From a bacterium (GTDB lineage: Bacteria; Pseudomonadota; Gammaproteobacteria; GCA-002705445; GCA-002716945), in assembly GCA_029979505.1 (NCBI GenBank), contig JAPOHH010000001.1:55034-119033 (forward strand): a stretch of DNA of 64,000 nucleotides, written 5' to 3'. The notes beneath the pieces were generated by a model. It was not told the DNA's origin. It worked only from the letters and a program-made list of their open reading frames with translations, and ran no database searches. A program made the translations under genes and the position numbers. Shown in pieces: positions 49,169 through 63,931 of the stretch; the first letter of the stretch is position 1, and the number at the start of each line of letters is the position of its first letter.

Positions 49169-50311
49169 ATGAAAAAGATCTTGCACTTGTCGAAATTCAA
49201 TGCTCCTCATTATGGCGGTATTGAGCGTGTAGTTGAGACTATAACTAATGGGTTATCCTGTAGATATAAGCATATAATTATCTCTTTTAAAAAATCATTA
49301 CAAGAAGACTCAATAAAAATAAAGAATGTAGAAAATATAAGTGAAAGAAGTTTAATAACAATTTTATCTCAACCAATAAATATTAATTATTTTCTTCACG
49401 TAAAGCAATATATCAATAATGTTGATTTAGTACATATTCATGCTCCAAATCTGGTTGCTTTCTTAGCTATGATAATGTTCAGGAAGAATACAAAATTTAT
49501 TGTACATTGGCATAGTGATATTATTAAGAATTCAACTATAACTTTTTTTACTAAATTTTTAGAAAAATATATACTTAATAAGTCTTATAAAATAATTGCA
49601 ACTTCAGAAAACTATGCTAAACATTCAGCATCACTCAGCAAGTACCAAGATAAAATAAAAATAATTCCAATAGGTGTGGCAAAAGATAAATTTAACTCTG
49701 AAGTTGATATAGAAAATCTATCTAATAAATCTATCTATAAAAAGAATAAAAATAAAAAAATAGCGTTATATGTAGGGAGATTTGTAAAATATAAATCATT
49801 AATCAATTTTATTAAATCTGCGGTTAATCTAACTGATGAAGCTGTAATATATTTAGTTGGAAATGGCCCTGAAAAGAAAAAAATGGTTGAAACAATTAAA
49901 AATTGCAAGCTGAGCAATAAGGTATATATTCTTGATGGAGTTGATGACCAAGAACTAAATTATCTATATAAAAAAGCAAGAGTGTTTTGCTTACCATCAA
50001 CTACAAAAGCTGAAGCCTTTGGTGTAGTCTTAGCAGAAGCATTGATGAATAAAATACCATTAGTTGTTTATAACATCCCAGGCTCAGGTGTTAACTGGGT
50101 AAATGAAAATAATATTACTGGCTATAATATTGAAAATTATCAAAAAGATATTTTTATAAAAAAAGTAAATGAAATAATATTATCTGATGAACTTCATAGA
50201 AAACTTTCATCTGGTGCGGAAAAAAGATACGAAAGATATTTTACAGCGGATTCTTTTATTGATTCTATAGAAAAAATCTACGAAGAAATAATTAATTCAA
50301 ATAATTTATAA
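49169..50311 (+). CDS. Glycosyltransferase family 4
   Basis: GT-B C-terminal motif EAFGVVLAEALMNKIPLV. Confidence 0.75.
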   Translation: MKKILHLSKFNAPHYGGIERVVETITNGLSCRYKHIIISFKKSLQEDSIKIKNVENISERSLITILSQPININYFLHVKQYINNVDLVHIHAPNLVAFLAMIMFRKNTKFIVHWHSDIIKNSTITFFTKFLEKYILNKSYKIIATSENYAKHSASLSKYQDKIKIIPIGVAKDKFNSEVDIENLSNKSIYKKNKNKKIALYVGRFVKYKSLINFIKSAVNLTDEAVIYLVGNGPEKKKMVETIKNCKLSNKVYILDGVDDQELNYLYKKARVFCLPSTTKAEAFGVVLAEALMNKIPLVVYNIPGSGVNWVNENNITGYNIENYQKDIFIKKVNEIILSDELHRKLSSGAEKRYERYFTADSFIDSIEKIYEEIINSNNL

Positions 50312-51362
50312 ATTCATAAATAAAATTATCTTCACTAAATTTTTTTGAATTCTCTTTACAATCATAAAACATATTTTTAGCTTTTTGAGAATCAAGATTT
50401 TCGACGGCAATTTTAATATCTTTAATTGTTGGTTCCTCATCTAGAATTATACCAGTTACTTCATGCTTTATAATCTCAACAATACCTCCGCTTTTAGAAA
50501 TTATTACTGGTTTTCCATGAGCATTAGCTTCTGCTGCTGACATACCAAAATCTTCATTTTTTGGTATATAAACGCAAGCAATTGATTGATTAATCAGTTC
50601 TTGTAATTCGTTATCTACAAGCCATCCAGTAAATTTAATATTTTCTTTTGCAATTCTCTTAAGAGTTGAAAGTTCTGATCCACCAGATGCAACAATAAGT
50701 TGTTTATCTGGCATTTCATTAAATGCTTTAATAATTAGATCTACTCTCTTATACTTTTCAAGTCTTCCAATGGATAAATAATATCCTTTATTATCATTTT
50801 TTAAATTATTAGACTGTTTGATAGGTGGATATAAAACATGAGCATCAAGGTTAGTATGTTCTTTTATAGTTCTTTTAGAATGCATGGAATTTGTAAGTAT
50901 ACAGTCCATCTTATGTAGATTTAGTAAATATAATCTTTTATATATAGAAAAGGCTAATTTAACAAAAGGTCTTAGTAAATAATTGAATCTATTGAGATAG
51001 TTTTCATTCATTTTATATATAAATCTTGGGAGTGTATGGCAATAATAAATCTTTTTACCTTTTTTTTGATATACAGAATTTAAGATTGAGAAAACGCCAC
51101 TATAGATGACTACATCATAATTATTTATATTTTTTATTTTAAATAAAAATCTTAAAAATACTTGTATAACCCTAGGTATTAACGGCAGGTTACATAATAC
51201 ATCTACTTTATCGAGACCATCTGAGTATATATAGTTTTTATTTATCCATCCAACAATTATTTTTGCTTGAATTTTATTTTTCAAGATTGTAACAAGTTTT
51301 TCTGCTCCTCCATTAACGTGAAAGTAATCATGAAGAATAAGAACATTTTTAATTTTATTCAT
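50292..51362 (-). CDS. Glycosyltransferase family 4
   Basis: EDFGMSAAEANAHGKPVI motif. Confidence 0.75.
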   Translation of the reverse strand: MNKIKNVLILHDYFHVNGGAEKLVTILKNKIQAKIIVGWINKNYIYSDGLDKVDVLCNLPLIPRVIQVFLRFLFKIKNINNYDVVIYSGVFSILNSVYQKKGKKIYYCHTLPRFIYKMNENYLNRFNYLLRPFVKLAFSIYKRLYLLNLHKMDCILTNSMHSKRTIKEHTNLDAHVLYPPIKQSNNLKNDNKGYYLSIGRLEKYKRVDLIIKAFNEMPDKQLIVASGGSELSTLKRIAKENIKFTGWLVDNELQELINQSIACVYIPKNEDFGMSAAEANAHGKPVIISKSGGIVEIIKHEVTGIILDEEPTIKDIKIAVENLDSQKAKNMFYDCKENSKKFSEDNFIYEFINYLN

Positions 51363-52944
51363 TTTCTTGAATAAACTCTTTTTTATTTATTATGCCCTCG
51401 CATATTAAATCTAATCCATTATCATTTCCGGGTAATAATTCGCTAGTTTTAGTGACATTTAGACCAAACGGAGAAAAGTATTTCGAGTACTTAATTGATT
51501 TAAGTTTTATCATTCTTTGAAAGAAAATATAGTATGCAAATTTTTTTGCTTTAATAATTAAATCGTCACTCAATATTTTACTATATGGTAGCATATCTAG
51601 CTGTTTTTTATATTCATTAACCGAATCCACATCTATTGTAAATCCTTTATTACGCGCCCAAGATTCTCCTGCTACAATAACTGGTTTACCTGTACAGGAA
51701 ATTTCTATTGCCATTTTTGTACCATAAACAATACAACTATCACTTATTTCAACAAGATTATATGTTGAAATATTACTTGATGCTTGAACTATAAATATAT
51801 TCTTTGGAATCGTTTTATATTTTTTTATGATTTCTTCATATACACTTTGATTCGATGGGACGGTACCTAAAATCTCTCCGGGGTGTATCCTTATAACTAG
51901 TTGAGTCTTCTCATTTTTTTTAAAATAATCAATAGTATAAAAAAGCCAATCAAGCATCGATTTAAATATATGTCCTTTGAAATGCAGTTGAGCATCCCAC
52001 AAAACATTCGTAAGAAGTGTTACGATTGGTTTTTTTTGATCAATACCAAGAGAACTATACATATCTTTATTTAGGGATTTATTTTGAAAGGAAATCCAAT
52101 CATTTGTTCCTGTTTTTCTGCTATTTAGATAATTCATAAGCTTTATGTTCTTTTCTAAGCACCATTTCATTCGAGTCCAATTATTATCATCAGTAAGAAT
52201 TGTTCTGTGATATGTATCATTATGACTAAATAAAACAGTTCCTTTTCTATAAGATGGTCCCCAATTAATCACATGAATATTTTTCTTTCTACATACGTCT
52301 CCAATTATTCCTTGAGGAACATAAATTCCATGATGAAATACTACGCTTGTGAAATTGTATGTATTGGTTATATTATCAATAACTCTTTTTGTTAGTTCAG
52401 ATGCTTTCTTATATTTTTTTAATATTTGATTATGTATAGGGCCATTAAGTGTACCTCTTCCGAGATATCTCAGTGCACCAGCTCGTGCATGTTCATCAAT
52501 ACTGATATTTATTTCATGATTACTGTGATAATTATAATCACTATATTTTAAAACTTCTATACCAAGAGAATCATACATTTTTTTTGAATGATGGTATGAT
52601 GAACTACATATCGATTTGTTTCCTTCTAAAAGAAATCTTTTTTCATTTAACCAGTAAGATTCACATTCTTGACATGCATCAATAAGACCATCATTTAAAA
52701 GAATTTTTACTGATACACCTCTTAATGTTAATGCAATTGCTAATAAACTTTCAAAAGAGCTACATGGCCATAACCCACCGGTACTTGTTGCTATAAGAAT
52801 TTTTGATTCAGAAGAATTAACTACCCCCGCATCTTTGATAACTTTATCCCAATTAAATCTTGCAGATGTATAAGGCCTTATTTTTCTTAAAACAAATTCA
52901 TATAAAAAACTTTTTCTTATTTTTTTTGTTATTGAATTAGACAT
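51355..52944 (-). CDS. Putative polysaccharide biosynthesis transferase with R-x-HP motif (capsule KpsS/KpsC-like or TagF-like GT-B; family uncertain)
   Basis: VIRIHPGE followed by ...ISDSCIVYGTKMAIEISCTGKPVI, resembling the HP motif and C-terminal region of Capsule_synth/Glyphos_transf families (from memory). Confidence 0.35.
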   Translation of the reverse strand: MSNSITKKIRKSFLYEFVLRKIRPYTSARFNWDKVIKDAGVVNSSESKILIATSTGGLWPCSSFESLLAIALTLRGVSVKILLNDGLIDACQECESYWLNEKRFLLEGNKSICSSSYHHSKKMYDSLGIEVLKYSDYNYHSNHEINISIDEHARAGALRYLGRGTLNGPIHNQILKKYKKASELTKRVIDNITNTYNFTSVVFHHGIYVPQGIIGDVCRKKNIHVINWGPSYRKGTVLFSHNDTYHRTILTDDNNWTRMKWCLEKNIKLMNYLNSRKTGTNDWISFQNKSLNKDMYSSLGIDQKKPIVTLLTNVLWDAQLHFKGHIFKSMLDWLFYTIDYFKKNEKTQLVIRIHPGEILGTVPSNQSVYEEIIKKYKTIPKNIFIVQASSNISTYNLVEISDSCIVYGTKMAIEISCTGKPVIVAGESWARNKGFTIDVDSVNEYKKQLDMLPYSKILSDDLIIKAKKFAYYIFFQRMIKLKSIKYSKYFSPFGLNVTKTSELLPGNDNGLDLICEGIINKKEFIQENE

Positions 52945-52962: not shown

Positions 52963-54030
52963 TTATTTAAAAAGATAAGTATCAATTTGTTTATTACATA
53001 ATTCAGAAATATCAACTTTATCAATATAACCTTTATGCCAATTAACAATATTTTCAATAGTCTTTTTTAATTTCCATTTTGGATGCCACTGCAAATATTT
53101 TTTTGCTTTTTCATTATTTAACATCAACAATGATGCTTCGTGCGGATGCTTACCATCCTGATTACATATTTCAATTTCAGCCCCGTATGATTTAACTATC
53201 AAAGATGCCAACTCATATACAGAACAGTTATTCTCATCATCAGGACCAAAGTTCCACCCGCCTGAAAATTTTTTAGGATCTTTATATAACTTTTCTGCTA
53301 ATTTTAAGTATCCCGATAAAGGTTCTAGTACATGTTGCCAAGGTCTTGTTGAATTAGGATTTCTTATATCCAACGAATTATTTTTTTGACATGATTGTAA
53401 AATATCAGGTACTAGACGGTCATCAGACCAATCACCGCCACCTATTACATTACCTGCTCTAGCAGATGCAAGACCTACTTCATTGATACTATAATAAGAT
53501 TTCCAAAATGAATTTGTTATTAATTCAGAACAAGCTTTGCTGCAGCTATACGGGTCGTGTCCACCCATCCTGTCGTTTTCAGTATATGGAACATTAGTTT
53601 CATGATTTTCATAGCATTTATCAGATGTAATATTTATAAATGCTTTCAGTGATTTACACGACATAGATGTTTCTAGTAGATTAACTGTTCCCATGATATT
53701 AGTTGAATACGTGCTTACAGGATCTTGATATGATTTCCTGACAATTGCTTGTGCTGCCATATGAATAATGATTTCAGGCTTTGTATCGCTAATAAGATTC
53801 TTTACAGATTCATAGTTTGATAAATCACCAATATAGGAATTTATTTTTTTACCAATCAGGGATAGTTCATATAAATTAGGTTTTTTAATTGGATTCAAAG
53901 AAAATCCAGATACATTAGCTTCAAGTTTATTAAGAAGAATTGTTAACCATGAACCTTTAAATCCCGTATGACCAGTTATTAAAACATTTTTATTTTTCCA
54001 AAAGTCTTTATCTACTACCATACTTTCCAT
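52963..54030 (-). CDS. rfbG: CDP-glucose 4,6-dehydratase
   Basis: VLITGHTGFKGSWL Rossmann motif, YxxxK in DPYSCSKAC, and overall RfbG-like sequence. Confidence 0.85.
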   Translation of the reverse strand: MESMVVDKDFWKNKNVLITGHTGFKGSWLTILLNKLEANVSGFSLNPIKKPNLYELSLIGKKINSYIGDLSNYESVKNLISDTKPEIIIHMAAQAIVRKSYQDPVSTYSTNIMGTVNLLETSMSCKSLKAFINITSDKCYENHETNVPYTENDRMGGHDPYSCSKACSELITNSFWKSYYSINEVGLASARAGNVIGGGDWSDDRLVPDILQSCQKNNSLDIRNPNSTRPWQHVLEPLSGYLKLAEKLYKDPKKFSGGWNFGPDDENNCSVYELASLIVKSYGAEIEICNQDGKHPHEASLLMLNNEKAKKYLQWHPKWKLKKTIENIVNWHKGYIDKVDISELCNKQIDTYLFK

Positions 54031-54827
54031 TTAGCTTTTCTATTATCCCACATGTTGTCTAGTAAGTTTTTATCTCTTAGAGTGTCCATTGGCTGCCAAA
54101 AATCTTTATGTATATATGCGGATAATTGTCCTTCACTTGCAATTTTTTCTAATGGCTCCTTTTCCCAGATTATCTGATCACCGTCAATATAGTCTAGCAC
54201 TTTTGGTTTGAGAACAAAGAAACCGCCATTGATGTAACCATTATCAGAAACAGGTTTTTCAATAAACGATTCAACTTTATCGCTATCAATTTTTAAAGAT
54301 CCAAATCGTCCTGGTGGATTTACTGCGGTAACTGTTGCTAACCTATTTGACTTAGTATGAAAATCAATTAATTTTGAAATATCTACATTTGATAAACCGT
54401 CACCATATGTAAAGCAGAAGTCATCATCACCTATAAATTTTTTTACAGCTTTAAGCCGACCGCCAGTTAATGTAGATTCGCCTGTATCTACTAAAGTAAT
54501 TTTCCAAGGTTCACTCTTATGGGCATGTATATTATGACTGTTATTTTCTAAATCAATTGTTAAATCAGAGACATGAAGAAAATAATTAAAAAAATATTCC
54601 TTAATTTGATATCCCTTATATCCACAACAAATAATAAATTCATTGATTCCATAATGGGAATATATTTTCATGATATGCCACAGGATGGGTTTTCCTCCTA
54701 TTTCTATCATAGGTTTAGGCTTGAGATTACTCTCTTCAGAGATTCTAGTCCCTAGACCACCAGCTAAAATAACGCATTTTTTAACGTGATTTGACAAAAG
54801 AGTACCCCTCTTGATGTTGCTCTGCAT
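54015..54827 (-). CDS. rfbF: Glucose-1-phosphate cytidylyltransferase
   Basis: KCVILAGGLGTRISEE matches the RfbF N-terminus. The true start may be the TTG about 14 codons in (AAGAGGGG SD upstream) rather than the first ATG. Confidence 0.85.
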   Translation of the reverse strand: MQSNIKRGTLLSNHVKKCVILAGGLGTRISEESNLKPKPMIEIGGKPILWHIMKIYSHYGINEFIICCGYKGYQIKEYFFNYFLHVSDLTIDLENNSHNIHAHKSEPWKITLVDTGESTLTGGRLKAVKKFIGDDDFCFTYGDGLSNVDISKLIDFHTKSNRLATVTAVNPPGRFGSLKIDSDKVESFIEKPVSDNGYINGGFFVLKPKVLDYIDGDQIIWEKEPLEKIASEGQLSAYIHKDFWQPMDTLRDKNLLDNMWDNRKAKWKVW

Positions 54828-54897: not shown

Positions 54898-55905
54898 TTA
54901 GAAAATATAACCATTTTCATTATGAATTTTTTTTAAAAAATTGATTTGTTGATCTTCTATATTTGCATCCCTATGAATATTCTTAACAGTTCTCATATGT
55001 AAGGCAAAAGGCTTCTTATTATATAGAATTTCTTCTGGACGCATGTATTCATACTCTTTTGGATATATTTTTTTTATAAATGAGTATGTATTTTGATAAT
55101 TAATTCTTGGGATAACACCTAATATTTCTGGTAGCCAATTTCTTAATATTCTTGGAAATGTTTTTCTAACCTTACACAAATCATTATAATTAAATATATT
55201 CAATTGATTATTAAATAGAAAGACAGGGATATTATTACTCTTAGTATAATCTCTCAAATAGGATAAAGTATCCTTAGAAATATTTAATTTATAAATTGTA
55301 AACAATGGTACTAATAGAAGACTAGCTGGATATCTAAGAATAGTTTTTTGTAGATTAATAATGAGATATTTTAATTTCATTGCTAATTTACGTTTTTTTT
55401 CACTTACATTTAATTCAGGGGAAAATGATAGAAGGTCACGATTGATATTTGCAAAATTTATTGAAAAGAAATGGGGAGCAACAAAATCCTTCCATTTACT
55501 TGTTGAAGATAAATCCCATCGCATTCCTACTACTGGATAATTATTGTGAAGATTTAAAATAATATTTGAAAAATTCATATCAATAAATAAAAAATCAGGA
55601 TCTATAAATGTAACTACCTTGTTTTTATGATTAATTGAATCTAATCCAAAAAGTAAATTCGCAGAGTGATGATATGATCCCTCATCGTAGGGAGTAAAAA
55701 AAGAAGATATTCCTCTAATGAAAGTTATTTTTATATTATCTTGATTATTTATTAAGACTTTTGCATGTTCATATAATTCAGGATTAATTATTAAATTAAA
55801 TATAAGCTCATTATCAAATTTACAGTTAGCAAGAGAGCTAAGATGGAAATTAACTAAATTCAACTCAGATTTTTTATATATTGAAATAATAAAATTATGC
55901 TTCAT
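54898..55905 (-). CDS. Uncharacterised putative transferase, paralogue A (no recognisable family)
   Basis: Clear paralogue of 57099-58136: shared motifs SFFTPYDxGSYHH, IDPDFxFI, DFVAPHFFSI, FALHMRTVKN. Confidence 0.5.
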   Translation of the reverse strand: MKHNFIISIYKKSELNLVNFHLSSLANCKFDNELIFNLIINPELYEHAKVLINNQDNIKITFIRGISSFFTPYDEGSYHHSANLLFGLDSINHKNKVVTFIDPDFLFIDMNFSNIILNLHNNYPVVGMRWDLSSTSKWKDFVAPHFFSINFANINRDLLSFSPELNVSEKKRKLAMKLKYLIINLQKTILRYPASLLLVPLFTIYKLNISKDTLSYLRDYTKSNNIPVFLFNNQLNIFNYNDLCKVRKTFPRILRNWLPEILGVIPRINYQNTYSFIKKIYPKEYEYMRPEEILYNKKPFALHMRTVKNIHRDANIEDQQINFLKKIHNENGYIF

Positions 55906-57133
55906 TTAATGTCATCAATACTCTATCAGCTTGATCTTTCAATAAATTATTTATATAAGCAGGATCAAACCATATACGATTATTTATTTCATATTCTATT
56001 TGGTAAATATTAATATCTTTCTCACAATATACAATATAAGGATGAAGTGCGAGTGGAACTCTTAATGCAATCTCTGGTCTCATGATAACGTAACAACCTG
56101 CCATGATTGCTTCTAGAATTTTTGTTTTAAAACCCCAACCAGAACTATCTAGTACAAATAATGCTGTATATGAATGAAGTATAGATAATGGAGATTTAAG
56201 ATCACCTACATTCAGCATCCTTTCTTTACTTTTAAGGTGTTTAATATAAGGACCTGTATAAGATATTTTTATATCTTTAGGAAATTTATCAACAAACCCT
56301 GATAGATACATTATTTCTTGGTCAAGTCTTTCATTTTGAATATATGATGATCCATAAATAAGGTATTTTTGATTTGAACCATTATGCTCTCTTGGCTGAA
56401 TTTCTGACAGAAGCTCTTCAGTGATATAATATGGTACGTACTTAATTTTTCTCATTCGTACGTCATGAGAGCTAAAATGTAACTTATTCCAATAATTCAC
56501 AATATCATATTCACTTATTGAATGGATTTCATCAGCATATTTCAGTGCAATACAATCAGAAATATAGCATTTTAGACCAGTATAGTACTGCATCTTCCAT
56601 TCAAATCTATGAAAACCCTCTGCATTATGTGACCTGAAAATAATTTTTACATCCGGATAAGCTTTTTTTAGATACTTTATTGTTAATCCGTATGACCCTG
56701 GAACATCAAGGTATATCGTATGTATAGATAAATTATTCTCTTTTATTAATTTAAGAAATACAACTTTTAAAAGAGCTTTAAGTATTCGATCTCCTCGAAT
56801 TGTTTTAAGAGATATAAAAGATATATTATTTCTCTTAAAATAATCTACTCTAGTTTTTATGTCTTTTGAACTACCAAGATAGTTCAATGATGGTACAGAG
56901 GTATTTTCAGGGACAATATGTAAGATATATTTTTTTGAACTTCCATTGAATTTTTCCCAACACTTCTTTTTCTTATAAAACCACATGGCTTTGATAGAGG
57001 TAGGTAAAAAATATTTTAATCTAAATAGTATTGGATTATGACTTATACTTAAGAATTTATAAATTTCATATAATAGACGTCTAATTTTACCTACAATGCT
57101 AGAAATCATGTAATTCACCCTCAAAAATACCAT
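55895..57133 (-). CDS. GT-B fold glycosyltransferase (GT4-like C-terminal domain)
   Basis: C-terminal GWGFKTKILEAIMAGCYVI resembles the GT-B nucleotide-sugar binding E-x7-E region. Confidence 0.5.
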   Translation of the reverse strand: MVFLRVNYMISSIVGKIRRLLYEIYKFLSISHNPILFRLKYFLPTSIKAMWFYKKKKCWEKFNGSSKKYILHIVPENTSVPSLNYLGSSKDIKTRVDYFKRNNISFISLKTIRGDRILKALLKVVFLKLIKENNLSIHTIYLDVPGSYGLTIKYLKKAYPDVKIIFRSHNAEGFHRFEWKMQYYTGLKCYISDCIALKYADEIHSISEYDIVNYWNKLHFSSHDVRMRKIKYVPYYITEELLSEIQPREHNGSNQKYLIYGSSYIQNERLDQEIMYLSGFVDKFPKDIKISYTGPYIKHLKSKERMLNVGDLKSPLSILHSYTALFVLDSSGWGFKTKILEAIMAGCYVIMRPEIALRVPLALHPYIVYCEKDINIYQIEYEINNRIWFDPAYINNLLKDQADRVLMTLNEA

Positions 57134-58136
57134 TTAAAGAAAAATAGTTTTTTAAAAAATTTAATTGAATTTCTCCAGTACCATCTTTACCTATTATTTT
57201 ATAAAAATTTTTTACAGTTCTCATGTGTAAAGCAAATAGTTTATTATCATAACTGATTTCTTCAGGTCTCATTAGTTTGTATTCACCTGGATTTGTATGT
57301 TTAATAAACGAGTGTTCTCTTGATTTTGTTTCTTTTGGAATATATCCAATTAATTTTGGCAACCAAAATCTAGAATAAATTGGAAATGCCTCTTTCATCT
57401 TGTCTAAAGAATTCAAATCAAATTCATTTATATTATTTTTGAATAGAAATATTGGAATATTATTCTTCTTAATATAATTTCGCAATACTGAAAGTGTATC
57501 ATAAGAAGATTTGATTCTTAGCCATGCATAAATTGGTAGAATGAGTAAATTTGATATTTTTCTCAGTAAATAGTTCTGCTTAAATTGATTAATTATATGT
57601 TCTAGATATTCATATTTAATTCTTTTTTTATTTGTAATTTCTAATTGTGGATTAAATATAACCCCGTCTGGACTAAGTTTTCTAAAATCTATTGAAAAGA
57701 AATGTGGAGCAACGAAATCCTTATGCTTATTATAATTAATATGTCCCCATTCCATACCTACTATATTATATCCACTGTCATGGAGTTTAGAAATTATCTC
57801 AGAGAAGTTTGTGTTTATAAAAAAAAAGTCAGGATCTATATAAGTAACAATCTTATTTTTTACATTTGCCTGCAATGTTCCAATTCTAAGATTTGCTGCA
57901 TGGTGATATGATCCTACATCGTATGGAGTAAAAAATGACGCAACACCTTTAATAGTCTCAATATTATCAATTTGATTAAGTTCATTATAAGCAAAGTCAA
58001 ATATTTCAGGATTAGCAACAATAAAAAACTTTAATTTTTTTTTTGTTTCAATTAAATTTAAATAATTAACATGAAACCTTATCAAAGGTATTTCTGATTT
58101 TTTATAAGTTGAAATTATTATATAATGGTCGCTCAT
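57099..58136 (-). CDS. Uncharacterised putative transferase, paralogue B
   Basis: Same conserved blocks as 54898-55905. Confidence 0.5.
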   Translation of the reverse strand: MSDHYIIISTYKKSEIPLIRFHVNYLNLIETKKKLKFFIVANPEIFDFAYNELNQIDNIETIKGVASFFTPYDVGSYHHAANLRIGTLQANVKNKIVTYIDPDFFFINTNFSEIISKLHDSGYNIVGMEWGHINYNKHKDFVAPHFFSIDFRKLSPDGVIFNPQLEITNKKRIKYEYLEHIINQFKQNYLLRKISNLLILPIYAWLRIKSSYDTLSVLRNYIKKNNIPIFLFKNNINEFDLNSLDKMKEAFPIYSRFWLPKLIGYIPKETKSREHSFIKHTNPGEYKLMRPEEISYDNKLFALHMRTVKNFYKIIGKDGTGEIQLNFLKNYFSLNGIFEGELHDF

Positions 58137-58153
58137 GGTTATTGAAAACCATA

Positions 58154-59413
58154 CTACTGTATAACAATATTTGATTCAATTATTTCTGAAGGACGTCTAT
58201 TTTTTAAAAATATTGATGATCTGTCAACATCCTCCTTATTTGCCATAGAATTTAGCAAATCAATAAGGTTTTCAGGTTTTACAGGAGCTATAATGCTCTC
58301 GTCAATCATTTGCTTAAAATGAGGTGCATTTGATTGTGTTTGATCAATACTATTATCAATAATTGCTATAGATTTTACACCTAAAGCATAACTGTCAATC
58401 ATTGCTGATGTGTTTAGTCCAAAAACTAAGTAAGATTTCAAAATTATCTCTGACAAATAAAGCTCAGATTGCTCGCTATGTGTTAATCCAACATTATCAT
58501 TATCAAATATAATTGACTTTGGTAGTCGTTCTTTAGAAATTAATTTAGCTGGATGAGAACGCACAATTAAACTGTATTCAGATAATTTACTCTTCTTGAT
58601 TGTTTCATATAAAAATAAAATATTTTTATTTTCATTACTTTTAATATTAGCTGAGGAACCAATATAAAGAATTTGTTTATCTTTTTTTATATCAATATTA
58701 TGCGAAATCCATTTTTCAAAAAATAATGATCCAGATATTATAATCTTTTCATTATTAATATGATGAATCTTCTTACAATATTCTTGTTGAAGTTTATTCC
58801 AAACATATACATAGTCAATTTGATTTAAAACCAGAGATTTAGTTGTTAAATTATCCCAAGTGAGTATCGGGTAATGAACTTTTAATCCTAAACATTTTGC
58901 AGCTAAAATATATTCATTCTCATTAGAAAATCTAAGATTAGCAGCTGTTGATATCATACAGTCATAGTTCATTGTTTTAATTCTCTCTTTAATAGATTTA
59001 TCGACAGGCAGGAGAAGATATAAATTATAAAATAAGCTGAATAGTATTTTTGATTTTAAAATCCTCTCGAATGTCTTATATTTACACAGGTATCTAATTA
59101 TTTTAGGCTGGTACAATATCCATCTCGTAATATAGAATTTCGTCGTTTCCTTTCTTCTTAAATATGACATCAATGTGATAAATTCGAATAAATATTTTTT
59201 CATATTGAAAAACAATCCACTACCAGAAATCATGGAATCATATTTAATTCTAAGCCCTTTTAAAAGTTTATGTTTTTTTAATTCAGTTATGTTTTTGGAT
59301 GACCAGGTTTCATCTAGATAAAGCGTACAGTCATTATTTATCGAAAGTTTACTTATCAGTTTGTATACATATGGTACATGGTCATATGATCTGATTGTAA
59401 TAAGTATTTTCAT
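58154..59413 (-). CDS. Putative TagF/KpsS-like transferase with R-x-HP motif
   Basis: VRSHPAKL followed by ...SYLVFGLNTSAMIDSYALGVKSIAI, resembling the Glyphos_transf/Capsule_synth catalytic region (from memory). Confidence 0.35.
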   Translation of the reverse strand: MKILITIRSYDHVPYVYKLISKLSINNDCTLYLDETWSSKNITELKKHKLLKGLRIKYDSMISGSGLFFNMKKYLFEFITLMSYLRRKETTKFYITRWILYQPKIIRYLCKYKTFERILKSKILFSLFYNLYLLLPVDKSIKERIKTMNYDCMISTAANLRFSNENEYILAAKCLGLKVHYPILTWDNLTTKSLVLNQIDYVYVWNKLQQEYCKKIHHINNEKIIISGSLFFEKWISHNIDIKKDKQILYIGSSANIKSNENKNILFLYETIKKSKLSEYSLIVRSHPAKLISKERLPKSIIFDNDNVGLTHSEQSELYLSEIILKSYLVFGLNTSAMIDSYALGVKSIAIIDNSIDQTQSNAPHFKQMIDESIIAPVKPENLIDLLNSMANKEDVDRSSIFLKNRRPSEIIESNIVIQ

Positions 59414-59419
59414 TTAATA

Positions 59420-60562
59420 TTAAGATTCGGTTACGGTAACAGACGAACCTACAAAACCATCTGGAGGAACGCTACCAATACTTCTTTCATTCATACATGA
59501 TCGATCATTAGTCATTATCATAGGTACGGGTACCTTCCATACTTTTATATCATCAACAAATAATGTCAGAAACAAATAATAATTAATTTTTCTAAATTTT
59601 ATGTCATCAACATTGAATGAAAATGTTGTTGGTTTTGATAGTAAAAATTCATGATTATAAGAAAATAATCTAAAGTGACCAAGATTTTTTCGATCATGCG
59701 CTAGAGACCACCCAAGAGAACATTTTGTGTTTTTAAGTCCGTTGTTATCAATTAATATTGATAGGGATAAATTTGCATGTTCAATGTCAATGTCAGTAAA
59801 CGAATAAGAGATATCACTAATAGTAGGTGTAGCATTATTATCTCTAGCTGAATCATTATAAATAGGTGCATTAACTCTCTTTAAAAAAGGAATTATCGGC
59901 AGTGAGACCTCTTCATTATCTGGGTTAATGATAGATATAGTCTGAAAACCATATAGTTCATTGTTATGAACATTTTGATCAAGGTTTGATAATAATATAT
60001 ATTTATTATCCTTATTAAGCTTATCTAAATGTCTAGAATCAAAACCTGTTAGTATTATTGTTTTATTAGGTATACTTAAAGATAATATAAAAAATAATAA
60101 ATCACGATACAATTTCTTCTGATCAACATCTGCAGCTTTAGTACTGTAATCAAATTCTTTTTTTAATTTTTGTATATATTGTTCAACTTCATCAGGAATT
60201 TCATCAAAAATATCTTTCACTATGTAATCAAGCATGACATGTTCCCTATAAAGGGGTCTGAAAAATTTTGGCGCTTTAGCATGTATTGATATATATTCAA
60301 AATTTATATTTTTTTTATAATGCCCTGCTCTATCATGAATAGCATTGACAACTAAATCATAATATGACTTGTTTTTCATAACATATATTTTATTACTATC
60401 ACTTGGTAGGTTAATTTTGTAAGTTAAAAAGTCTTTATGGTAAATGTCTTTTGTAAATAAAGAATTAAAAAGTATATTTCTTCTTCTTTTGTGGATTTTG
60501 AGTTTTTTTGTTTCAAATAACTCTACTGACAATGTATCAGACGATTGAATCTTTATAGGCAT
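59420..60562 (-). CDS. Hypothetical protein (380 aa), no recognisable motifs
   Basis: Long ORF embedded in the polysaccharide operon with 26-nt overlap onto the upstream gene. No Walker motifs seen. Confidence 0.5.
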   Translation of the reverse strand: MPIKIQSSDTLSVELFETKKLKIHKRRRNILFNSLFTKDIYHKDFLTYKINLPSDSNKIYVMKNKSYYDLVVNAIHDRAGHYKKNINFEYISIHAKAPKFFRPLYREHVMLDYIVKDIFDEIPDEVEQYIQKLKKEFDYSTKAADVDQKKLYRDLLFFILSLSIPNKTIILTGFDSRHLDKLNKDNKYILLSNLDQNVHNNELYGFQTISIINPDNEEVSLPIIPFLKRVNAPIYNDSARDNNATPTISDISYSFTDIDIEHANLSLSILIDNNGLKNTKCSLGWSLAHDRKNLGHFRLFSYNHEFLLSKPTTFSFNVDDIKFRKINYYLFLTLFVDDIKVWKVPVPMIMTNDRSCMNERSIGSVPPDGFVGSSVTVTES

Positions 60563-61268
60563 ATTTAATTTCCTTATCTACTGATTTATAAAAGTATAAC
60601 GATAGAGCTATTAATATAATAGTGTGAATTTTAAGAATCATCAGCTTCTCAAGAAAAGCTATGTCATAAAAGAATATAATCTCTATAAAATTAAAGATAG
60701 AAAAAAAGGCAAAACTATCAGATATTAAAATATTTATTTTCAAGAAAAGCAAAAGTATTATTGGAACAAACTGAGGTGCATTTACAAAATCTATAGCATT
60801 TATAGACAATGTCCCTATCTTTACGAAAATTGGCATGGTAATTACATACAATAAAAGTGGATAAAATAAATGGTCTGTGTATGAAACATCTACAAATATA
60901 GAAAGAAGTACATATAGGATATTCAAAAAGAACAAACTTAGAATAAAATCACATAAATTATAAATTAGTGCGTCATTAATTGAAAATGATGTTAGTTTAA
61001 TATACCTTCGCATTCTACGAGCATTAGTTACAATATTAATTGTACAGTACCAATAAATAGTCCATCCAAATGTCATAGTTAGCAAAGTATTAATGTTCTC
61101 AATATCAGGAAATACACCTTGTATCATAAGAAAATATGACCCAAACATAAGGAGTGGCTTGAAAATATACCAAAACCATCCAGAAATTGTTAGGTCATTC
61201 CAATAAAATGTTTCAAGTTTATAAGCTATAAATCCTTTATTTGTCATTTTCGTGTAAATATTTTTCAA
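60537..61268 (-). CDS. Putative ABC-2 type (Wzm/KpsM-like) polysaccharide-export permease
   Basis: 243 aa, about 6 TM. N-terminal block LTISGWFWYIFKPLLMFGSYFLMIQGVF resembles the KpsM/TagG signature region. Confidence 0.4.
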   Translation of the reverse strand: MKNIYTKMTNKGFIAYKLETFYWNDLTISGWFWYIFKPLLMFGSYFLMIQGVFPDIENINTLLTMTFGWTIYWYCTINIVTNARRMRRYIKLTSFSINDALIYNLCDFILSLFFLNILYVLLSIFVDVSYTDHLFYPLLLYVITMPIFVKIGTLSINAIDFVNAPQFVPIILLLFLKINILISDSFAFFSIFNFIEIIFFYDIAFLEKLMILKIHTIILIALSLYFYKSVDKEIKYAYKDSIV

Positions 61269-63183
61269 TACAAAAAGTTAAATTAAAGCTGTCTAGATTT
61301 GCATGTTTTAAGACTAGTTCATTTTCTCCACATTTAGGGAAATCATCTAATCCAATAGCTTCAATTCTTGGGGCATTTGCTCCCCAATCAATAGATGTTA
61401 TCCGATCTCTTAATCCACCAATTAGATAATGATTTTCAAGGACAATAATAAATTTTATATTTTCAGTATAATTTTTTAACCATGGTCGTTTTACTTCATT
61501 TAACCATGGGAAATTTATAACTTTAATATTAATATGTCTTTCAGTTTTATACTTGATTGCTACAGAATGCGCAAGATTACATGCTATTGGGCCATATGCA
61601 ATTATTGCGATTTCTTCACCATCATCTATAACTAATCCTTTACCTGCATTCAGTCTAATATCTTTTGGATAGTCAAAGTTAATTTCTATTGGCAGAGAAC
61701 AAAGTCTAATATAAGTACTATATTCTGTTTCTGGACTGATTGCCCAATTTAAAACATTATTTAATTCTTCTTCACAACATGGTTCAACTATTCTGAGACC
61801 TGGGATTGCTGCAAGCGATGATATGTCTCGAACCGCTTGATGAGAGTGTCCTGGCCCTCCTGGTAAAACTCCAGCTAGAGAACCTACATAGATAATTTTT
61901 TTTCTTTCAGTTGCATTGTTATAAATTTGTTCGTTAGGTCTTGTAGATAAAAAGCAAGAAAAAGAATGTACAATAGGCAAATAACCACTTAAGGATAGTC
62001 CACCAGCTGTTGAGACCATATCTTGCTCTGCAATACCACACTCAATAAATCTTTCTGGAAATTTATTTTTAAATGGGATGAGACCCGTATCAAGAATTAA
62101 ATCTGCATCTAAAGCTACAATCTTATTATTTTTTTTTGCATGCTCAACTAATTGTTCACTGTATGCTGCAATTAAATTATCCGGTTTTTTTTGCGTAACA
62201 GTGTTCTTTTTTTTCTTTTCTGTTGAACTAATAGAGATTTTATCTAGATTGAATTGATCTTGATAGTGTTCTACTGTTTCTATAAGTTCATTAGCAGCAT
62301 TTAAATATTCTTCAGGTGTTGGTGCTCCGCTGTGATATTGATAATATTTATCATTAGGTTTTGCAGTGTGCTCCATGAATGAAACACCCTTGCCTTTAAT
62401 TGTATTCGCGAGTAAAAATTTTGGTCCTGACTTTTCTTTTAATCTATCTATAGCATTTTCTAGTGATTCTAAGTCATTCCCATCACATTGATCTACATTC
62501 CAACCAAAAGATTTTACTTTTGATAAAATATCACCAAGATCAGAAACTTCGCTAAGTAAAGTGTCAGATTGCAGTTTATTATGATCAACAATTACAAATA
62601 GTTCATCCATATTATAATTCACAGCTGAAACTAAGGATTCCCAAAATTGACCCTCTTGAAGCTCGCCATCGCCTGTAAGTACAAATACTCTGCCAGAGAT
62701 TTTAGATAGCCTTCTTGCAAAAATCATACCCTTAGCTTTAGATATACCCATTCCCAACGATCCAGTATTTGTTGCTATACAGGGTGTGTTGATGTCTGGA
62801 TGTCCAGGCAGACCATTAATTTTACGGAGTTTATCAATTAGATGGAAATCAAGATAACCATGAGCAATTAGCATTGAATAGAATCCAGGTGCATCATGTC
62901 CCTTAGAACTAAAGAATATATCTCCGTCGACTGTCGGGTTATTGTTATGGAAATTAAGCTCTTTTAGAAACAACCAAGAAAATATATCTAAACTACTAAA
63001 GCTACTACCTATATGGCCTGAGCCAGAATTTGAAATCATATACAATGTGTTGAGTCTACAAAGGTCAGCTATAATTTTTGCTTTTAATCTTAGGTCAATC
63101 TTTTGTGAGAGAATGTATTGAAATATATTTTCTCCAATAAAATATAATGTTCCGTCAATTGCTTTTCCTATTTTATCTCCCAT
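61237..63183 (-). CDS. Transketolase, fused N-terminal (ThDP-binding) and C-terminal (Pyr/TKC) halves
   Basis: N-terminal half has SKGHDAPGFY, GLPGHPD and GDGELQEGQFWE; C-terminal half has FIECGIAEQDMVSTAGGLS. Both halves lie in a single 648-aa ORF. Confidence 0.85.
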   Translation of the reverse strand: MGDKIGKAIDGTLYFIGENIFQYILSQKIDLRLKAKIIADLCRLNTLYMISNSGSGHIGSSFSSLDIFSWLFLKELNFHNNNPTVDGDIFFSSKGHDAPGFYSMLIAHGYLDFHLIDKLRKINGLPGHPDINTPCIATNTGSLGMGISKAKGMIFARRLSKISGRVFVLTGDGELQEGQFWESLVSAVNYNMDELFVIVDHNKLQSDTLLSEVSDLGDILSKVKSFGWNVDQCDGNDLESLENAIDRLKEKSGPKFLLANTIKGKGVSFMEHTAKPNDKYYQYHSGAPTPEEYLNAANELIETVEHYQDQFNLDKISISSTEKKKKNTVTQKKPDNLIAAYSEQLVEHAKKNNKIVALDADLILDTGLIPFKNKFPERFIECGIAEQDMVSTAGGLSLSGYLPIVHSFSCFLSTRPNEQIYNNATERKKIIYVGSLAGVLPGGPGHSHQAVRDISSLAAIPGLRIVEPCCEEELNNVLNWAISPETEYSTYIRLCSLPIEINFDYPKDIRLNAGKGLVIDDGEEIAIIAYGPIACNLAHSVAIKYKTERHINIKVINFPWLNEVKRPWLKNYTENIKFIIVLENHYLIGGLRDRITSIDWGANAPRIEAIGLDDFPKCGENELVLKHANLDSFNLTFCIEKYLHENDK

Positions 63184-63931
63184 TACAACTCCTATGTTTT
63201 TTAAATTTAGGCAAAATTACATGTTTTGTGCGAATATAATGTTCAGCTAATAACCAGTCTTCGTGAGTATTTATATCAAAACCTTCAAGAGCTTTTGTAA
63301 TAAATGGCAAAATTAATGATCCAGAAATACTTTTTTTAACAACAAGAGTTTTAAGCCATGCAATCTCAAGACTAGCATTTTGAACATAGATTTTTGGAAG
63401 TAGTGCATATTGATTGCTATGCCATGGTGTCCCATTAATAGTTTTATTTAAAATTGGAGTCATATACTTCTTACCAAGTGACCACATTTTTCCTGGATGT
63501 TGTCCACATAGTTCAACAGCCCTAAGAGAATCAAATTTTAAACTTTTATTAAATAATTTAAATGCTCTTTTAATAGTTTTTTCTGTTCTAAATGGACTGG
63601 TAGGTCTTAATATACTATACACATTAAAGTCATATCCTTCGTTTTGTAAAACATCTGTAGTAAATTTTACCCATTCATAATCAGGTGAAGTTGATGATGC
63701 TATTTTTTTTGGTCTAAAAATAACTTCAGCACCATATTGGCTGGCGATATCAGCATAATATTCGGAGTCAGTTGAACAGATAACACGATTAAAACATTTA
63801 CATTCTAATGCAGAGTAAATGGTATAGGCGAGCAATGGACGGTTCTTTAGTAATTTTATATTTTTATCAATAATTCTTTTTGATCCTGATCTTGCAGGAA
63901 TAAGTGCTATCGCTTTTATGTTTTTACTCAT
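63173..63931 (-). CDS. CMP-sugar (acylneuraminate/nonulosonate/Kdo-type) cytidylyltransferase, NeuA/KdsB superfamily
   Basis: AIALIPARSGSKRIIDKNIKLL...ILRPTSPFR is typical of NeuA/PseF-type cytidylyltransferases. Confidence 0.8.
   Translation of the reverse strand: MSKNIKAIALIPARSGSKRIIDKNIKLLKNRPLLAYTIYSALECKCFNRVICSTDSEYYADIASQYGAEVIFRPKKIASSTSPDYEWVKFTTDVLQNEGYDFNVYSILRPTSPFRTEKTIKRAFKLFNKSLKFDSLRAVELCGQHPGKMWSLGKKYMTPILNKTINGTPWHSNQYALLPKIYVQNASLEIAWLKTLVVKKSISGSLILPFITKALEGFDINTHEDWLLAEHYIRTKHVILPKFKKHRSCNGR

What the first reader, a model, noticed from the sequence alone, without database searches (positions are those of the whole stretch)
54898..58136. Paralogous pair of unclassified putative transferases flanking a GT-B glycosyltransferase
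ORFs 54898-55905 and 57099-58136 are clear paralogues. They share long blocks SFFTPYD(E/V)GSYHH(S/A)ANL, (T)(F/Y)IDPDF(L/F)FI, KDFVAPHFFSI(N/D)F, and a C-terminal (K/L)FALHMRTVKN. I cannot place these in any glycosyltransferase, acyltransferase or sulfotransferase family from memory. The D-P-D-F block is DxD-like (GT-A?). The invariant YHH and HFFS blocks suggest a metal or phosphate site. A tandem duplication with a GT-B enzyme sandwiched between implies two related but distinct transfer steps, for example the same chemistry on two different acceptors.
Basis: seen in the sequence. Interest (0 to 1): 0.6.

Follow-up and report, generated by a model that had tools for sequence, protein, structure and literature searches.

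The report
Duplicated divergent GT-A glycosyltransferases in glycan operon
Two neighbouring genes are real 48%-identical paralogues from a rare, unnamed branch of the common GT-A glycosyltransferase fold, sitting in a bacterial surface-sugar gene cluster; this is a useful annotation, not a surprise.

Summary
Minus-strand ORFs 54898-55905 (335 aa) and 57099-58136 (345 aa) are paralogues (48% identity, E 3e-97). They flank a 412-aa ORF and overlap it by 11 and 35 nt.

Neither paralogue passes a curated Pfam or NCBIfam model, and neither matches a PDB sequence. They are still not orphans. An exhaustive profile search finds 689 clusters (50% identity level) of full-length relatives, and every named one is "hypothetical protein".

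Invariant residues are D101, D103, D213 and H304; H79 and E292 are near-invariant. This fits a metal-dependent NDP-sugar transferase. The C-terminal half is specific to this family.

The middle ORF is probably GT4-like (GT-B), on sub-threshold evidence. Both paralogues are under purifying selection.

Half of the family's loci share a NeuB/transketolase/CMP-sugar module with this window. The reverse test found the family in 0 of 32 module loci, so it is not that module's dedicated transferase.

Verdict: a new, divergent member of a known kind. Donor, acceptor and stereochemistry are unknown.

The parts
57099..58136 (-). parB: 345-aa divergent GT-A-fold putative glycosyltransferase
   Evidence: ORF. 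48% identical to parA. Family HMM 188 bits. AF2 model pLDDT 90.9, GT-A fold. dN/dS 0.12 against L002.
54898..55905 (-). parA: 335-aa paralogue of parB
   Evidence: ORF. Family HMM 184 bits. Keeps all invariant residues. dN/dS 0.25.
55895..57133 (-). Middle 412-aa ORF, probable GT4-like (GT-B) glycosyltransferase; overlaps both paralogues
   Evidence: Glyco_trans_1_4 E 0.048 for this protein. Six of the nine sequences scanned (this ORF and its eight homologues) hit it, best E 2e-5. Conserved GWGFKTKILEA..G block. dN/dS 0.06.
57825..57836 (-). parB DPDF (D101-P-D103-F): DxD motif
   Evidence: Both Asp invariant in 109 relatives. Aligns to the GT2 DxD in hhalign. Coordinates checked.
55591..55602 (-). 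parA DPDF (D102-P-D104-F): DxD motif
57900..57908 (-). parB Y77-H78-H79, at the N-terminus of the predicted alphaC helix
   Evidence: Conservation: H79 96%, H78 83%, Y77 74%. Helix 74-89 in the model. Role of alphaC taken from PMC7185993.
55666..55674 (-). parA Y78-H79-H80
57492..57500 (-). parB D213-T-L: invariant Asp just before predicted helix 216-224; candidate xED-type catalytic base
   Evidence: D213 100%, T214 92%. Secondary structure. The assignment is inferred.
57219..57227 (-). parB H304-M-R306: invariant His in the C-terminal tail; candidate C-His metal ligand
   Evidence: H304 100%, R306 90%. The assignment is inferred from PMC7185993.
57258..57263 (-). parB E292-E293: conserved acidic pair; alternative candidate base
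   Evidence: Position 292 is E in 94% and D in 6%; E293 is 87% conserved.
58154..59413 (-). Context: 419-aa protein, weak match to TIGR04396 'surface carbohydrate biosynthesis protein'
   Evidence: E 1.1e-5, below cut-off. Orthologues at 27-30% next to family members in L012, L016, L019 and L027.
51355..52944 (-). Context: 529-aa Capsule_synth-like (KpsC/KpsS-type) protein
   Evidence: PF05159 E 0.0018, below cut-off. Orthologues at 36-41% in L015, L017, L018 and L027.
52963..54827 (-). Context: glucose-1-phosphate nucleotidylyltransferase-like gene (54015-54827) and NDP-sugar 4,6-dehydratase-like gene (52963-54030), directly downstream of parA
   Evidence: PF00483 E 2.6e-20 and PF16363 E 9.4e-40. 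The CDP specificity (RfbF/RfbG) is my reading, not tested.
61237..63931 (-). Context: fused transketolase (61237-63183) and CTP_transf_3 cytidylyltransferase (63173-63931). This is the visible end of a NeuB-HAD-SDR-ALDH-cytidylyltransferase-TK module.
   Evidence: Pfam. The rest of the module is seen on sister contigs L028/L029. The module is conserved in 32 independently fetched loci.

Best explanation
parA and parB are two active paralogues of an unnamed, divergent family of GT-A-fold glycosyltransferases.

**Proposed mechanism.** The N-terminal Rossmann-like half is homologous to GT2 and binds an NDP-sugar. The DxD motif (D101/D103 in parB) and the invariant C-terminal His (H304) hold the divalent cation that bridges the diphosphate. 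The His pair at the start of helix alphaC (H78/H79) lines the donor-sugar and phosphate pocket. An invariant acid is the likely general base: D213, which sits just before a helix, or else E292. The family-specific C-terminal half has a variable, basic insert of 30-77 aa and a long tail. It would recognise the acceptor.

**Proposed role.** With the GT4-like enzyme encoded between them, the two proteins add successive, different sugars to a surface glycan (O-antigen or capsule type). That glycan is built by the surrounding minus-strand cluster of overlapping or closely spaced genes.

**Shown:** paralogy; family membership and size; remote GT2 homology of the N-terminal half; GT-A fold; the conservation pattern; purifying selection; the glycan-cluster context.

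**Inferred:** the roles of individual residues; use of an NDP-sugar donor; distinct steps for the two copies.

**Unknown:** donor, acceptor and stereochemistry.
For: - **Paralogy:** 48% identity, E 3e-97.
- **Family size:** profile search of 1.84 billion representatives gives 689 hits at E<=1e-3 and 121 at E<=1e-30, nearly all full length at 300-360 aa.
- **Link to GT2:** 63 of 109 members hit PF00535 at E<=0.01, best 5.7e-8. hhalign against genuine GT2 proteins gives 92.3% probability, E 5.6e-7, over the N-terminal 125 columns with DxD aligned to DxD.
- **Conserved residues:** invariant D101, D103, D213, H304; H79 96%; an acid at position 292 in 100%. Both paralogues keep all of them.
- **Motif framework:** the published GT-A core motifs are DxD, xED at the start of alphaF, a metal-binding C-His, and alphaC lining the donor pocket (PMC7185993).
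- **Selection:** dN/dS 0.12 and 0.25.
- **Context:** sugar-nucleotide genes, GT4s and an O-antigen ligase in the window. Family members elsewhere sit beside GT2, GT9, Wzx, Wzy_C, Wzm/Wzt, LpxL-like and sulfotransferase genes.
- **Gene order:** the parB, GT-B, parA order recurs in L026, and parB then GT-B recurs in L024/L025.
Against: - Neither window protein reaches any curated threshold (about 14 bits against 23.3 for PF00535).
- The C-terminal half, with D213, E292 and H304, cannot be aligned to GT2 by sequence. Forced alignments have zero confidence beyond about residue 142. The xED and C-His assignments therefore rest on predicted secondary-structure order, not on a superposition. The tools returned no model coordinates.
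- The window pair has replaced many residues that are near-universal in the family, for example P142 to V, R139 to K, W296 to Y and G215 to L. It shares only about 21-22% identity with other members. Its specificity, or even its activity, could differ from the rest of the family.
- No biochemical data exist for any member.
Confidence: 0.7

Rival explanations
1. The paralogues are the dedicated transferases for the CMP-activated ulosonic acid made by the adjacent NeuB-HAD-SDR-ALDH-cytidylyltransferase-transketolase module.
For: 10 of 20 independent loci fetched through the family carry orthologues of module genes or of the window's other unusual transferases. These loci come from Gamma- and Alphaproteobacteria, Desulfosarcina, Anaerolineae, Planctomycetota, Acidobacteriota and Bacillota. 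In L021 a member directly abuts a CTP_transf_3 gene.
Against: Reciprocal test: in 32 loci of at least 8 kb fetched through the module's cytidylyltransferase, the module is conserved (NeuB 27, SDR 24, TK 20) but the family HMM hits 0 of 32. Half of the family's loci lack the module. An invariant DxD with a candidate C-His metal site is typical of NDP-sugar (diphosphate) donors, not CMP-sugars (my own knowledge). The cluster has better candidates for CMP-sugar transfer: the Capsule_synth-like 529-aa protein and the TIGR04396-like 419-aa protein.
Confidence: 0.06
2. They use the GT-A/nucleotide-binding fold for a different chemistry. Options are a nucleotidyltransferase (IspD-like) or a sugar-phosphate or other phospho-group transferase, as the reader's Stealth suggestion implies.
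Confidence: 0.08
3. The two paralogues work as an obligate heterocomplex, or one copy is a non-catalytic partner (as in CHSY/CHPF or EXT1/EXT2), and do not catalyse two independent steps.
For: Conserved co-location and overlapping reading frames that suggest translational coupling. The A and B types persist side by side in related lineages. Doubled members also occur in L012 and L017. parA has Asn where 92% of the family has Asp (parB D150).
Against: Both copies keep every invariant and near-invariant candidate catalytic residue, and both are under purifying selection. Most family loci have a single copy. In L024/L025 the gene after the middle GT-B is an FkbM-type methyltransferase, not a second family member.
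Confidence: 0.12
4. The similarity is an artefact, or the ORFs are not real genes.
For: None found.
Against: E 3e-97. Exact or near-exact copies on many independent contigs. dN/dS well below 1. A confident fold prediction.
Confidence: 0.01

Closest known systems
Glycosyltransferase family 2 (Pfam PF00535 Glycos_transf_2; for example PcManGT 6yv7, AvpGT 9jma, K4CP 2z86)
   Different: The window proteins score about 14 bits against the 23.3 cut-off. GT2's 'GxSxARNxG' is replaced by 'GSYHHAxALN'. The C-terminal half cannot be aligned. It carries its own invariant D213, E292 and H304, a 30-77-aa basic helical insert and a tail of about 110 aa. Only 160-190 of 345 residues superpose.
GT8 / GT24 / GT25-type GT-A enzymes that use DxD plus a C-terminal His or Asp for Mn2+ (LgtC 1g9r, glycogenin, UGGT, ColGalT1)
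B4GALNT1 (GT12), PDB 9h6j
   Different: E 0.078, only 43 residues aligned. It is a eukaryotic ganglioside enzyme, and similarity is absent outside that segment.

Membership tests
GT-A fold glycosyltransferase superfamily (core as defined in PMC7185993) | Rossmann-like GT-A fold | tested here: met
GT-A fold glycosyltransferase superfamily (core as defined in PMC7185993) | DxD motif after beta4 | tested here: met
   D101-P-D103 follows predicted strand 96-100. Both Asp are invariant in 109 sequences. It aligns to the GT2 DxD.
GT-A fold glycosyltransferase superfamily (core as defined in PMC7185993) | xED acid at the start of helix alphaF (catalytic base in inverting enzymes) | tested here: inconclusive
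   Invariant D213 precedes predicted helix 216-224. Sequence alignment to GT2 fails in this region, and no coordinates were available for a superposition. E292 is an alternative.
GT-A fold glycosyltransferase superfamily (core as defined in PMC7185993) | C-His metal ligand in the C-terminal tail | tested here: inconclusive
   H304 is invariant and lies in the tail after the last core strand. Its proximity to the DxD could not be measured.
Pfam PF00535 Glycos_transf_2 / CAZy GT2 | Score at or above the Pfam gathering threshold (23.3 bits) | tested here: not met
   parA 14.1 bits and parB 14.0 bits, E about 0.05. At family level, 63 of 109 members hit at E<=0.01, best 5.7e-8.
Pfam PF00535 Glycos_transf_2 / CAZy GT2 | Homology across the whole catalytic domain, including the acceptor and base region | tested here: not met
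   hhalign is significant only for the N-terminal 125 columns. Forced extension has zero confidence.
Pfam PF00535 Glycos_transf_2 / CAZy GT2 | Assignment by CAZy (dbCAN HMMs or curated list) | not testable with these tools
   No CAZy or dbCAN library is available here.
   No Stealth model among Pfam hits at E<=1 for either protein, nor among 109 relatives at E<=0.01.
GT8 (retaining; DxD plus C-His plus KPW) | Sequence match to GT8 models or the KPW motif after the C-His | tested here: not met
   No Glyco_transf_8 hit. The consensus around H304 is PFGFHxR, with no KPW. The structural Z (12.7) is no better than for other GT-A families.
GT4 / GT-B (for the middle ORF 55895-57133) | Match to the Glycos_transf_1 or Glyco_trans_1_4 C-terminal domain above threshold | tested here: inconclusive
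   14.4 bits against a cut-off of 27 for this protein. Six of the nine sequences scanned hit Glyco_trans_1_4, best E 2e-5. Weak PDB profile hits to group-1 glycosyltransferases 2jjm and 3mbo, E about 0.2. No structure prediction was run for it.

The most novel reading that the evidence does not exclude
The family is a CAZy-level new GT-A family, with a catalytic centre made of the alphaC His pair, the DxD, D213 or E292, and a C-terminal His. In this reading the window's highly diverged pair uses an unusual donor. One candidate is the CDP-6-deoxyhexose that the directly adjacent nucleotidylyltransferase and 4,6-dehydratase genes would make. The pair would help build acidic or sulfated glycans that carry the product of the undescribed transketolase-containing CMP-ulosonic-acid module.
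Probability: 0.15. Interest if true: 0.55.

Novelty: new member of a known kind. Interest (0 to 1): 0.32.

Why it matters
It gives a fold, a probable chemistry and a set of testable catalytic residues to about 690 protein clusters. These are currently labelled "hypothetical" in surface-glycan loci from at least eight bacterial phyla or classes, many of them uncultured marine lineages. It also shows that a curated-HMM miss here reflects divergence, not a new fold. For glycobiology the gain is incremental: a candidate new GT-A subfamily whose acceptor-binding half is unlike characterised ones. The more interesting lead is a side observation. The family often travels with a widespread, conserved gene module containing a transketolase, which appears to make a CMP-activated acidic sugar. 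I could not find this module described in the literature I could search.

Tried and rejected
1. **Word-indexed homology search with parB alone** found only 5 proteins, which made the family look nearly orphan. The exhaustive profile search corrected this to 689 clusters.
2. **First AF2 model from 7 sequences** was mediocre (pLDDT 69.5). It was replaced by the 109-sequence model.
3. **PDB sequence and profile searches** gave nothing significant.
4. **NCBIfam** gave nothing for the window proteins and only scattered weak GT2-type hits for relatives.
5. **The search for related loci with the 109-sequence alignment** failed for lack of a conserved stretch. The 7-sequence alignment worked.
6. **The AFDB Foldseek library** was not available.
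7. **Forced global and low-MAC hhalign** to place D213 on the GT2 xED gave a zero-confidence alignment, so that assignment stays inferred.
8. **The hypothesis that the family is the transferase for the module's CMP-sugar** was rejected by the reciprocal test, 0 of 32 loci.
9. **Literature searches for the transketolase, cytidylyltransferase and NeuB module** found nothing relevant. The Cobetia marina paper mentions transketolase only as central metabolism.
10. **A membrane anchor in the family insert:** no TM-like segment in the insert and only 2 of 109 proteins with a TM-like window anywhere.
11. **The window's own genome** is not among the GTDB species representatives scanned. The organism is only tentatively a low-GC marine gammaproteobacterium, because its DnaK shares a 90% cluster with a protein named 'Gammaproteobacteria bacterium'.
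Full report
**1. The observation**

The window contains a run of minus-strand ORFs from about 50.3 kb to its end. Two of them, 54898-55905 (335 aa, "parA") and 57099-58136 (345 aa, "parB"), lie on either side of a 412-aa ORF at 55895-57133. BLASTP of parA against parB gives 164/339 identities (48%), E 3e-97. The only slip is that the residue before FALHMRTVKN is P or L, not K or L.

The three genes are tightly packed. parB's end overlaps the middle ORF's first ATG by 35 nt, and the middle ORF's end overlaps parA's start by 11 nt (ATGAAGCATAA).

Near-identical copies of the whole arrangement occur on independent metagenome contigs (L002, L028, L029). Comparing the window with L002 gives dN/dS of 0.12 (parB), 0.06 (middle ORF) and 0.25 (parA). 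All three are therefore real genes under purifying selection.

**2. Are they unclassifiable?**

By curated libraries, yes.
- Pfam gives only the same sub-threshold hit for both proteins: PF00535 Glycos_transf_2, about 14 bits against a 23.3 cut-off, residues about 80-150 onto profile positions 65-131.
- NCBIfam gives nothing.
- The PDB sequence search gives nothing.
- No Stealth model appears at E<=1.

A word-indexed search of 5.8 billion proteins with parB found five proteins. Four were near-orthologues of parA or parB. The fifth was one distant NCBI protein (P0005), about 21-26% identical depending on the alignment.

That apparent rarity came from the search method. A profile of those sequences, run exhaustively against 1.84 billion cluster representatives, found 689 proteins at E<=1e-3, 469 at E<=1e-10 and 121 at E<=1e-30. 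Nearly all are 300-360 aa and match end to end. Every member that carries a source name is "hypothetical protein". Named sources include Bacillota, Saprospiraceae, Candidatus Giovannonibacteria, Parcubacteria and Pelagibius. Genome hits are all MAGs: Alphaproteobacteria, Rickettsiales, Thiohalobacter, Thiogranum, Porticoccus, Planctomycetota, Desulfosarcina, Anaerolineae and Acidobacteriota.

**3. What the family is**

Three independent lines place it in the GT-A glycosyltransferase superfamily, nearest to GT2.
- Of 109 aligned members, 63 hit PF00535 at E<=0.01 (best 5.7e-8) and 13 hit Glyco_tranf_2_5. Scattered NCBIfam hits are all GT2-type enzymes.
- hhalign of the family alignment against genuine GT2 proteins taken from the fetched loci gives 92.3% probability, E 5.6e-7. 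The first strand, the "VVDN" strand and the DxD are in register. The match covers only the N-terminal 125 columns.

Forced global or low-stringency hhalign cannot extend the GT2 alignment beyond about residue 142.

**4. Conservation and likely mechanism**

In the 109-sequence alignment, four residues are invariant: D101, D103, D213 and H304 (parB numbering). Near-invariant residues are N42 (99%), G127 (99%), H79 (96%), an acid at position 292 (E 94%, D 6%), P163, P260, P267 and R306 (90%). Both window paralogues keep all of these.

I map them onto the GT-A common core defined by Taujale et al. 2020 (PMC7185993), using the predicted secondary-structure order.
- D101-P-D103 follows strand 96-100 and is the DxD.
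- S76-Y-H-H79 opens helix 74-89, after the beta3 loop. This is helix alphaC, which the paper describes as lying next to the donor-sugar pocket and carrying specificity determinants.
- D213 sits immediately before helix 216-224, the position of the xED base at the start of alphaF.
- H304 is in the C-terminal tail, where the metal-binding C-His of GT27 and GT8 enzymes lies.

This supports a metal-dependent, NDP-sugar-using glycosyltransferase. An invariant acid at the xED-like position slightly favours an inverting mechanism. The same paper notes that some retaining families, such as GT64, also conserve that Asp.

These residue roles are inferences. No model coordinates were available to me, and the region cannot be aligned to GT2 by sequence.

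The family has no transmembrane segment in the insert. Only 2 of 109 proteins have a TM-like window anywhere. The insert between P163 and D213 varies from 30 to 77 aa and is often basic. That would suit a peripheral membrane or acceptor-binding element.

**5. The window pair is a long branch**

parA and parB share about 43% identity over HMM match columns. They share only 21-22% with any other sampled member, whereas other members typically share 35-50% with each other. They have replaced many near-universal residues: N84, R95 to K, W111 to F, P129, H131, P132, R139 to K, Y140 to D, P142 to V, G215 to L, W291 to P and W296 to Y. At one conserved acidic position the two differ from each other: D150 in parB, N in parA.

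The duplication is not recent. A Tara contig (L024/L025) has a member 54.5% identical to parB but only 46-47% identical to parA. It sits upstream of a homologue of the middle ORF that is 48% identical to the window's. P0004 is 59% identical to parA and 44% to parB. In L026 the full order parB-like, middle ORF (88%), parA-like (88%) is kept, although the parB-like gene is split into two ORFs.

Doubled family members also occur in L017 (Anaerolineae), where the two copies are each other's closest relatives at 44%. They occur again in L012 (Rickettsiales MAG), at 41%, where one copy is closer to L016's member at 50%. Doubling has therefore arisen more than once.

**6. The middle ORF**

It has only eight homologues in the word-indexed search. 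For the window protein, Glyco_trans_1_4 is sub-threshold (E 0.048). Six of the nine sequences scanned (the ORF and its eight homologues) hit that model, best E 2e-5. A profile search of the PDB finds group-1 glycosyltransferases weakly (E about 0.2). The invariant G332-x-G-F-K-T-K-I-L-x-A block resembles the GT4 "EGFG...EAMA.G" donor-binding segment; that comparison is from my own knowledge. GT-B is therefore probable but not demonstrated.

Homologues of this ORF lie near family members in L017 and L027 as well.

**7. Context**

Downstream of parA lie:
- a glucose-1-phosphate nucleotidylyltransferase-like gene and an NDP-sugar 4,6-dehydratase-like gene;
- a 529-aa Capsule_synth-like protein;
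- two GT4 genes and an O-antigen-ligase-family protein.

Upstream lie:
- a 419-aa protein with a weak TIGR04396 match;
- a 380-aa protein with no hits;
- a 243-aa hydrophobic protein;
- a fused transketolase and a CTP_transf_3 cytidylyltransferase.

Sister contigs show that just beyond the window edge come ALDH, SDR, a HAD phosphatase and NeuB. Further out are a methyltransferase, a mannose-1-phosphate guanylyltransferase-type gene and deoxysugar genes.

Elsewhere, family members sit in comparable surface-glycan loci. Their neighbours include GT2, GT4, GT9, WavE, Glyphos_transf, Wzx, Wzy_C, Wzm/Wzt, sulfotransferases, APS kinase and LpxL-like acyltransferases.

**8. Is the family tied to the ulosonic-acid module?**

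Of 20 independent loci fetched through the family, 10 contain orthologues of one or both of:
- the module genes: cytidylyltransferase 41-54%, TK 42-44%, plus SDR, ALDH, NeuB and HAD;
- the window's other unusual transferases: the 529-aa, 419-aa and 412-aa proteins.

Because those loci were selected through the family, I ran the reverse test. I fetched 80 metagenome loci through the cytidylyltransferase orthogroup (42-58% identity; at least 480 relatives). In the 32 loci of at least 8 kb, the module is strongly conserved: NeuB 27, SDR 24, TK 20, ALDH 16, HAD 14. The family HMM hits none.

The family is therefore an occasional accessory enzyme of such loci and not the module's dedicated transferase. 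This fits its DxD/metal signature, which points to NDP-sugar donors and not CMP-sugar donors.

**9. Verdict**

The two proteins are paralogous, have no curated family, are GT-A-like with a genuine DxD, and probably carry out two distinct transfers. They are not unplaceable. They are very divergent members of an unnamed family of about 690 clusters, whose donor-binding half is homologous to GT2 and whose acceptor half is specific to the family.

That makes them a new member of a known kind. The result is a useful annotation and gives a set of mutational targets, but a specialist would not find it surprising. Donor, acceptor, stereochemistry and CAZy status remain open.

Noticed in passing
window 61237-63931 (minus strand), continuing beyond the window end; L028/L029 6206-12695: A six-gene module runs NeuB, HAD phosphatase, SDR, aldehyde dehydrogenase, CTP_transf_3 cytidylyltransferase, fused 648-aa transketolase. 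It is conserved across many lineages. In 32 loci of at least 8 kb fetched through the cytidylyltransferase: NeuB 27, SDR 24, TK 20, ALDH 16, HAD 14. It often sits with sulfotransferases and Wzm/Wzt exporters. It looks like a pathway to a CMP-activated acidic (ulosonic or ulosaric) sugar that uses a transketolase. Five literature searches found no description of it.
   Followed up: partly
window 51355-52944 (minus strand): A 529-aa protein has only a sub-threshold Capsule_synth (KpsC/KpsS-type) match, E 0.0018. It has orthologues at 30-44% identity in Desulfosarcina, Anaerolineae and Planctomycetota MAGs and in several module-containing metagenome loci. It is a candidate transferase for the CMP-sugar.
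   Followed up: partly
window 58154-59413 and 59420-60562 (minus strand): The 419-aa protein has a weak TIGR04396 'surface carbohydrate biosynthesis protein' match and orthologues at 27-30% in Rickettsiales and Acidobacteriota MAGs and in L027. The adjacent 380-aa protein has no family hit and no homologue outside near-identical contigs.
   Followed up: partly
L026 1-881: In this Tara contig the parB-like gene (91-95% identical to parB) is split into two overlapping ORFs, while the middle ORF and the parA-like gene are intact. This could be a frameshift pseudogene or an assembly error.
   Followed up: no
L001/L006 1102-4070 (Thiohalobacter MAG): The distant family member P0005 sits next to two LpxL-type lipid A acyltransferase genes, and beyond them dapB, dnaJ, dnaK, grpE and hrcA. 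This suggests an LPS core or lipid A-proximal role for some members.
   Followed up: no
L024 1902-2741: In the related Tara lineage, the gene after the middle GT-B is an FkbM-type methyltransferase (PF05050, E 2.2e-7) and not a second family member. The parA position is therefore not fixed.
   Followed up: no
window 49169-50311 (plus strand): A single GT4 gene is oriented against the otherwise minus-strand cluster and converges on the neighbouring GT4, with their 3' ends overlapping by 20 nt. The cluster (48-62 kb) has slightly lower G+C (0.26-0.30) than the 22-38 kb housekeeping region (0.31-0.36).
   Followed up: no
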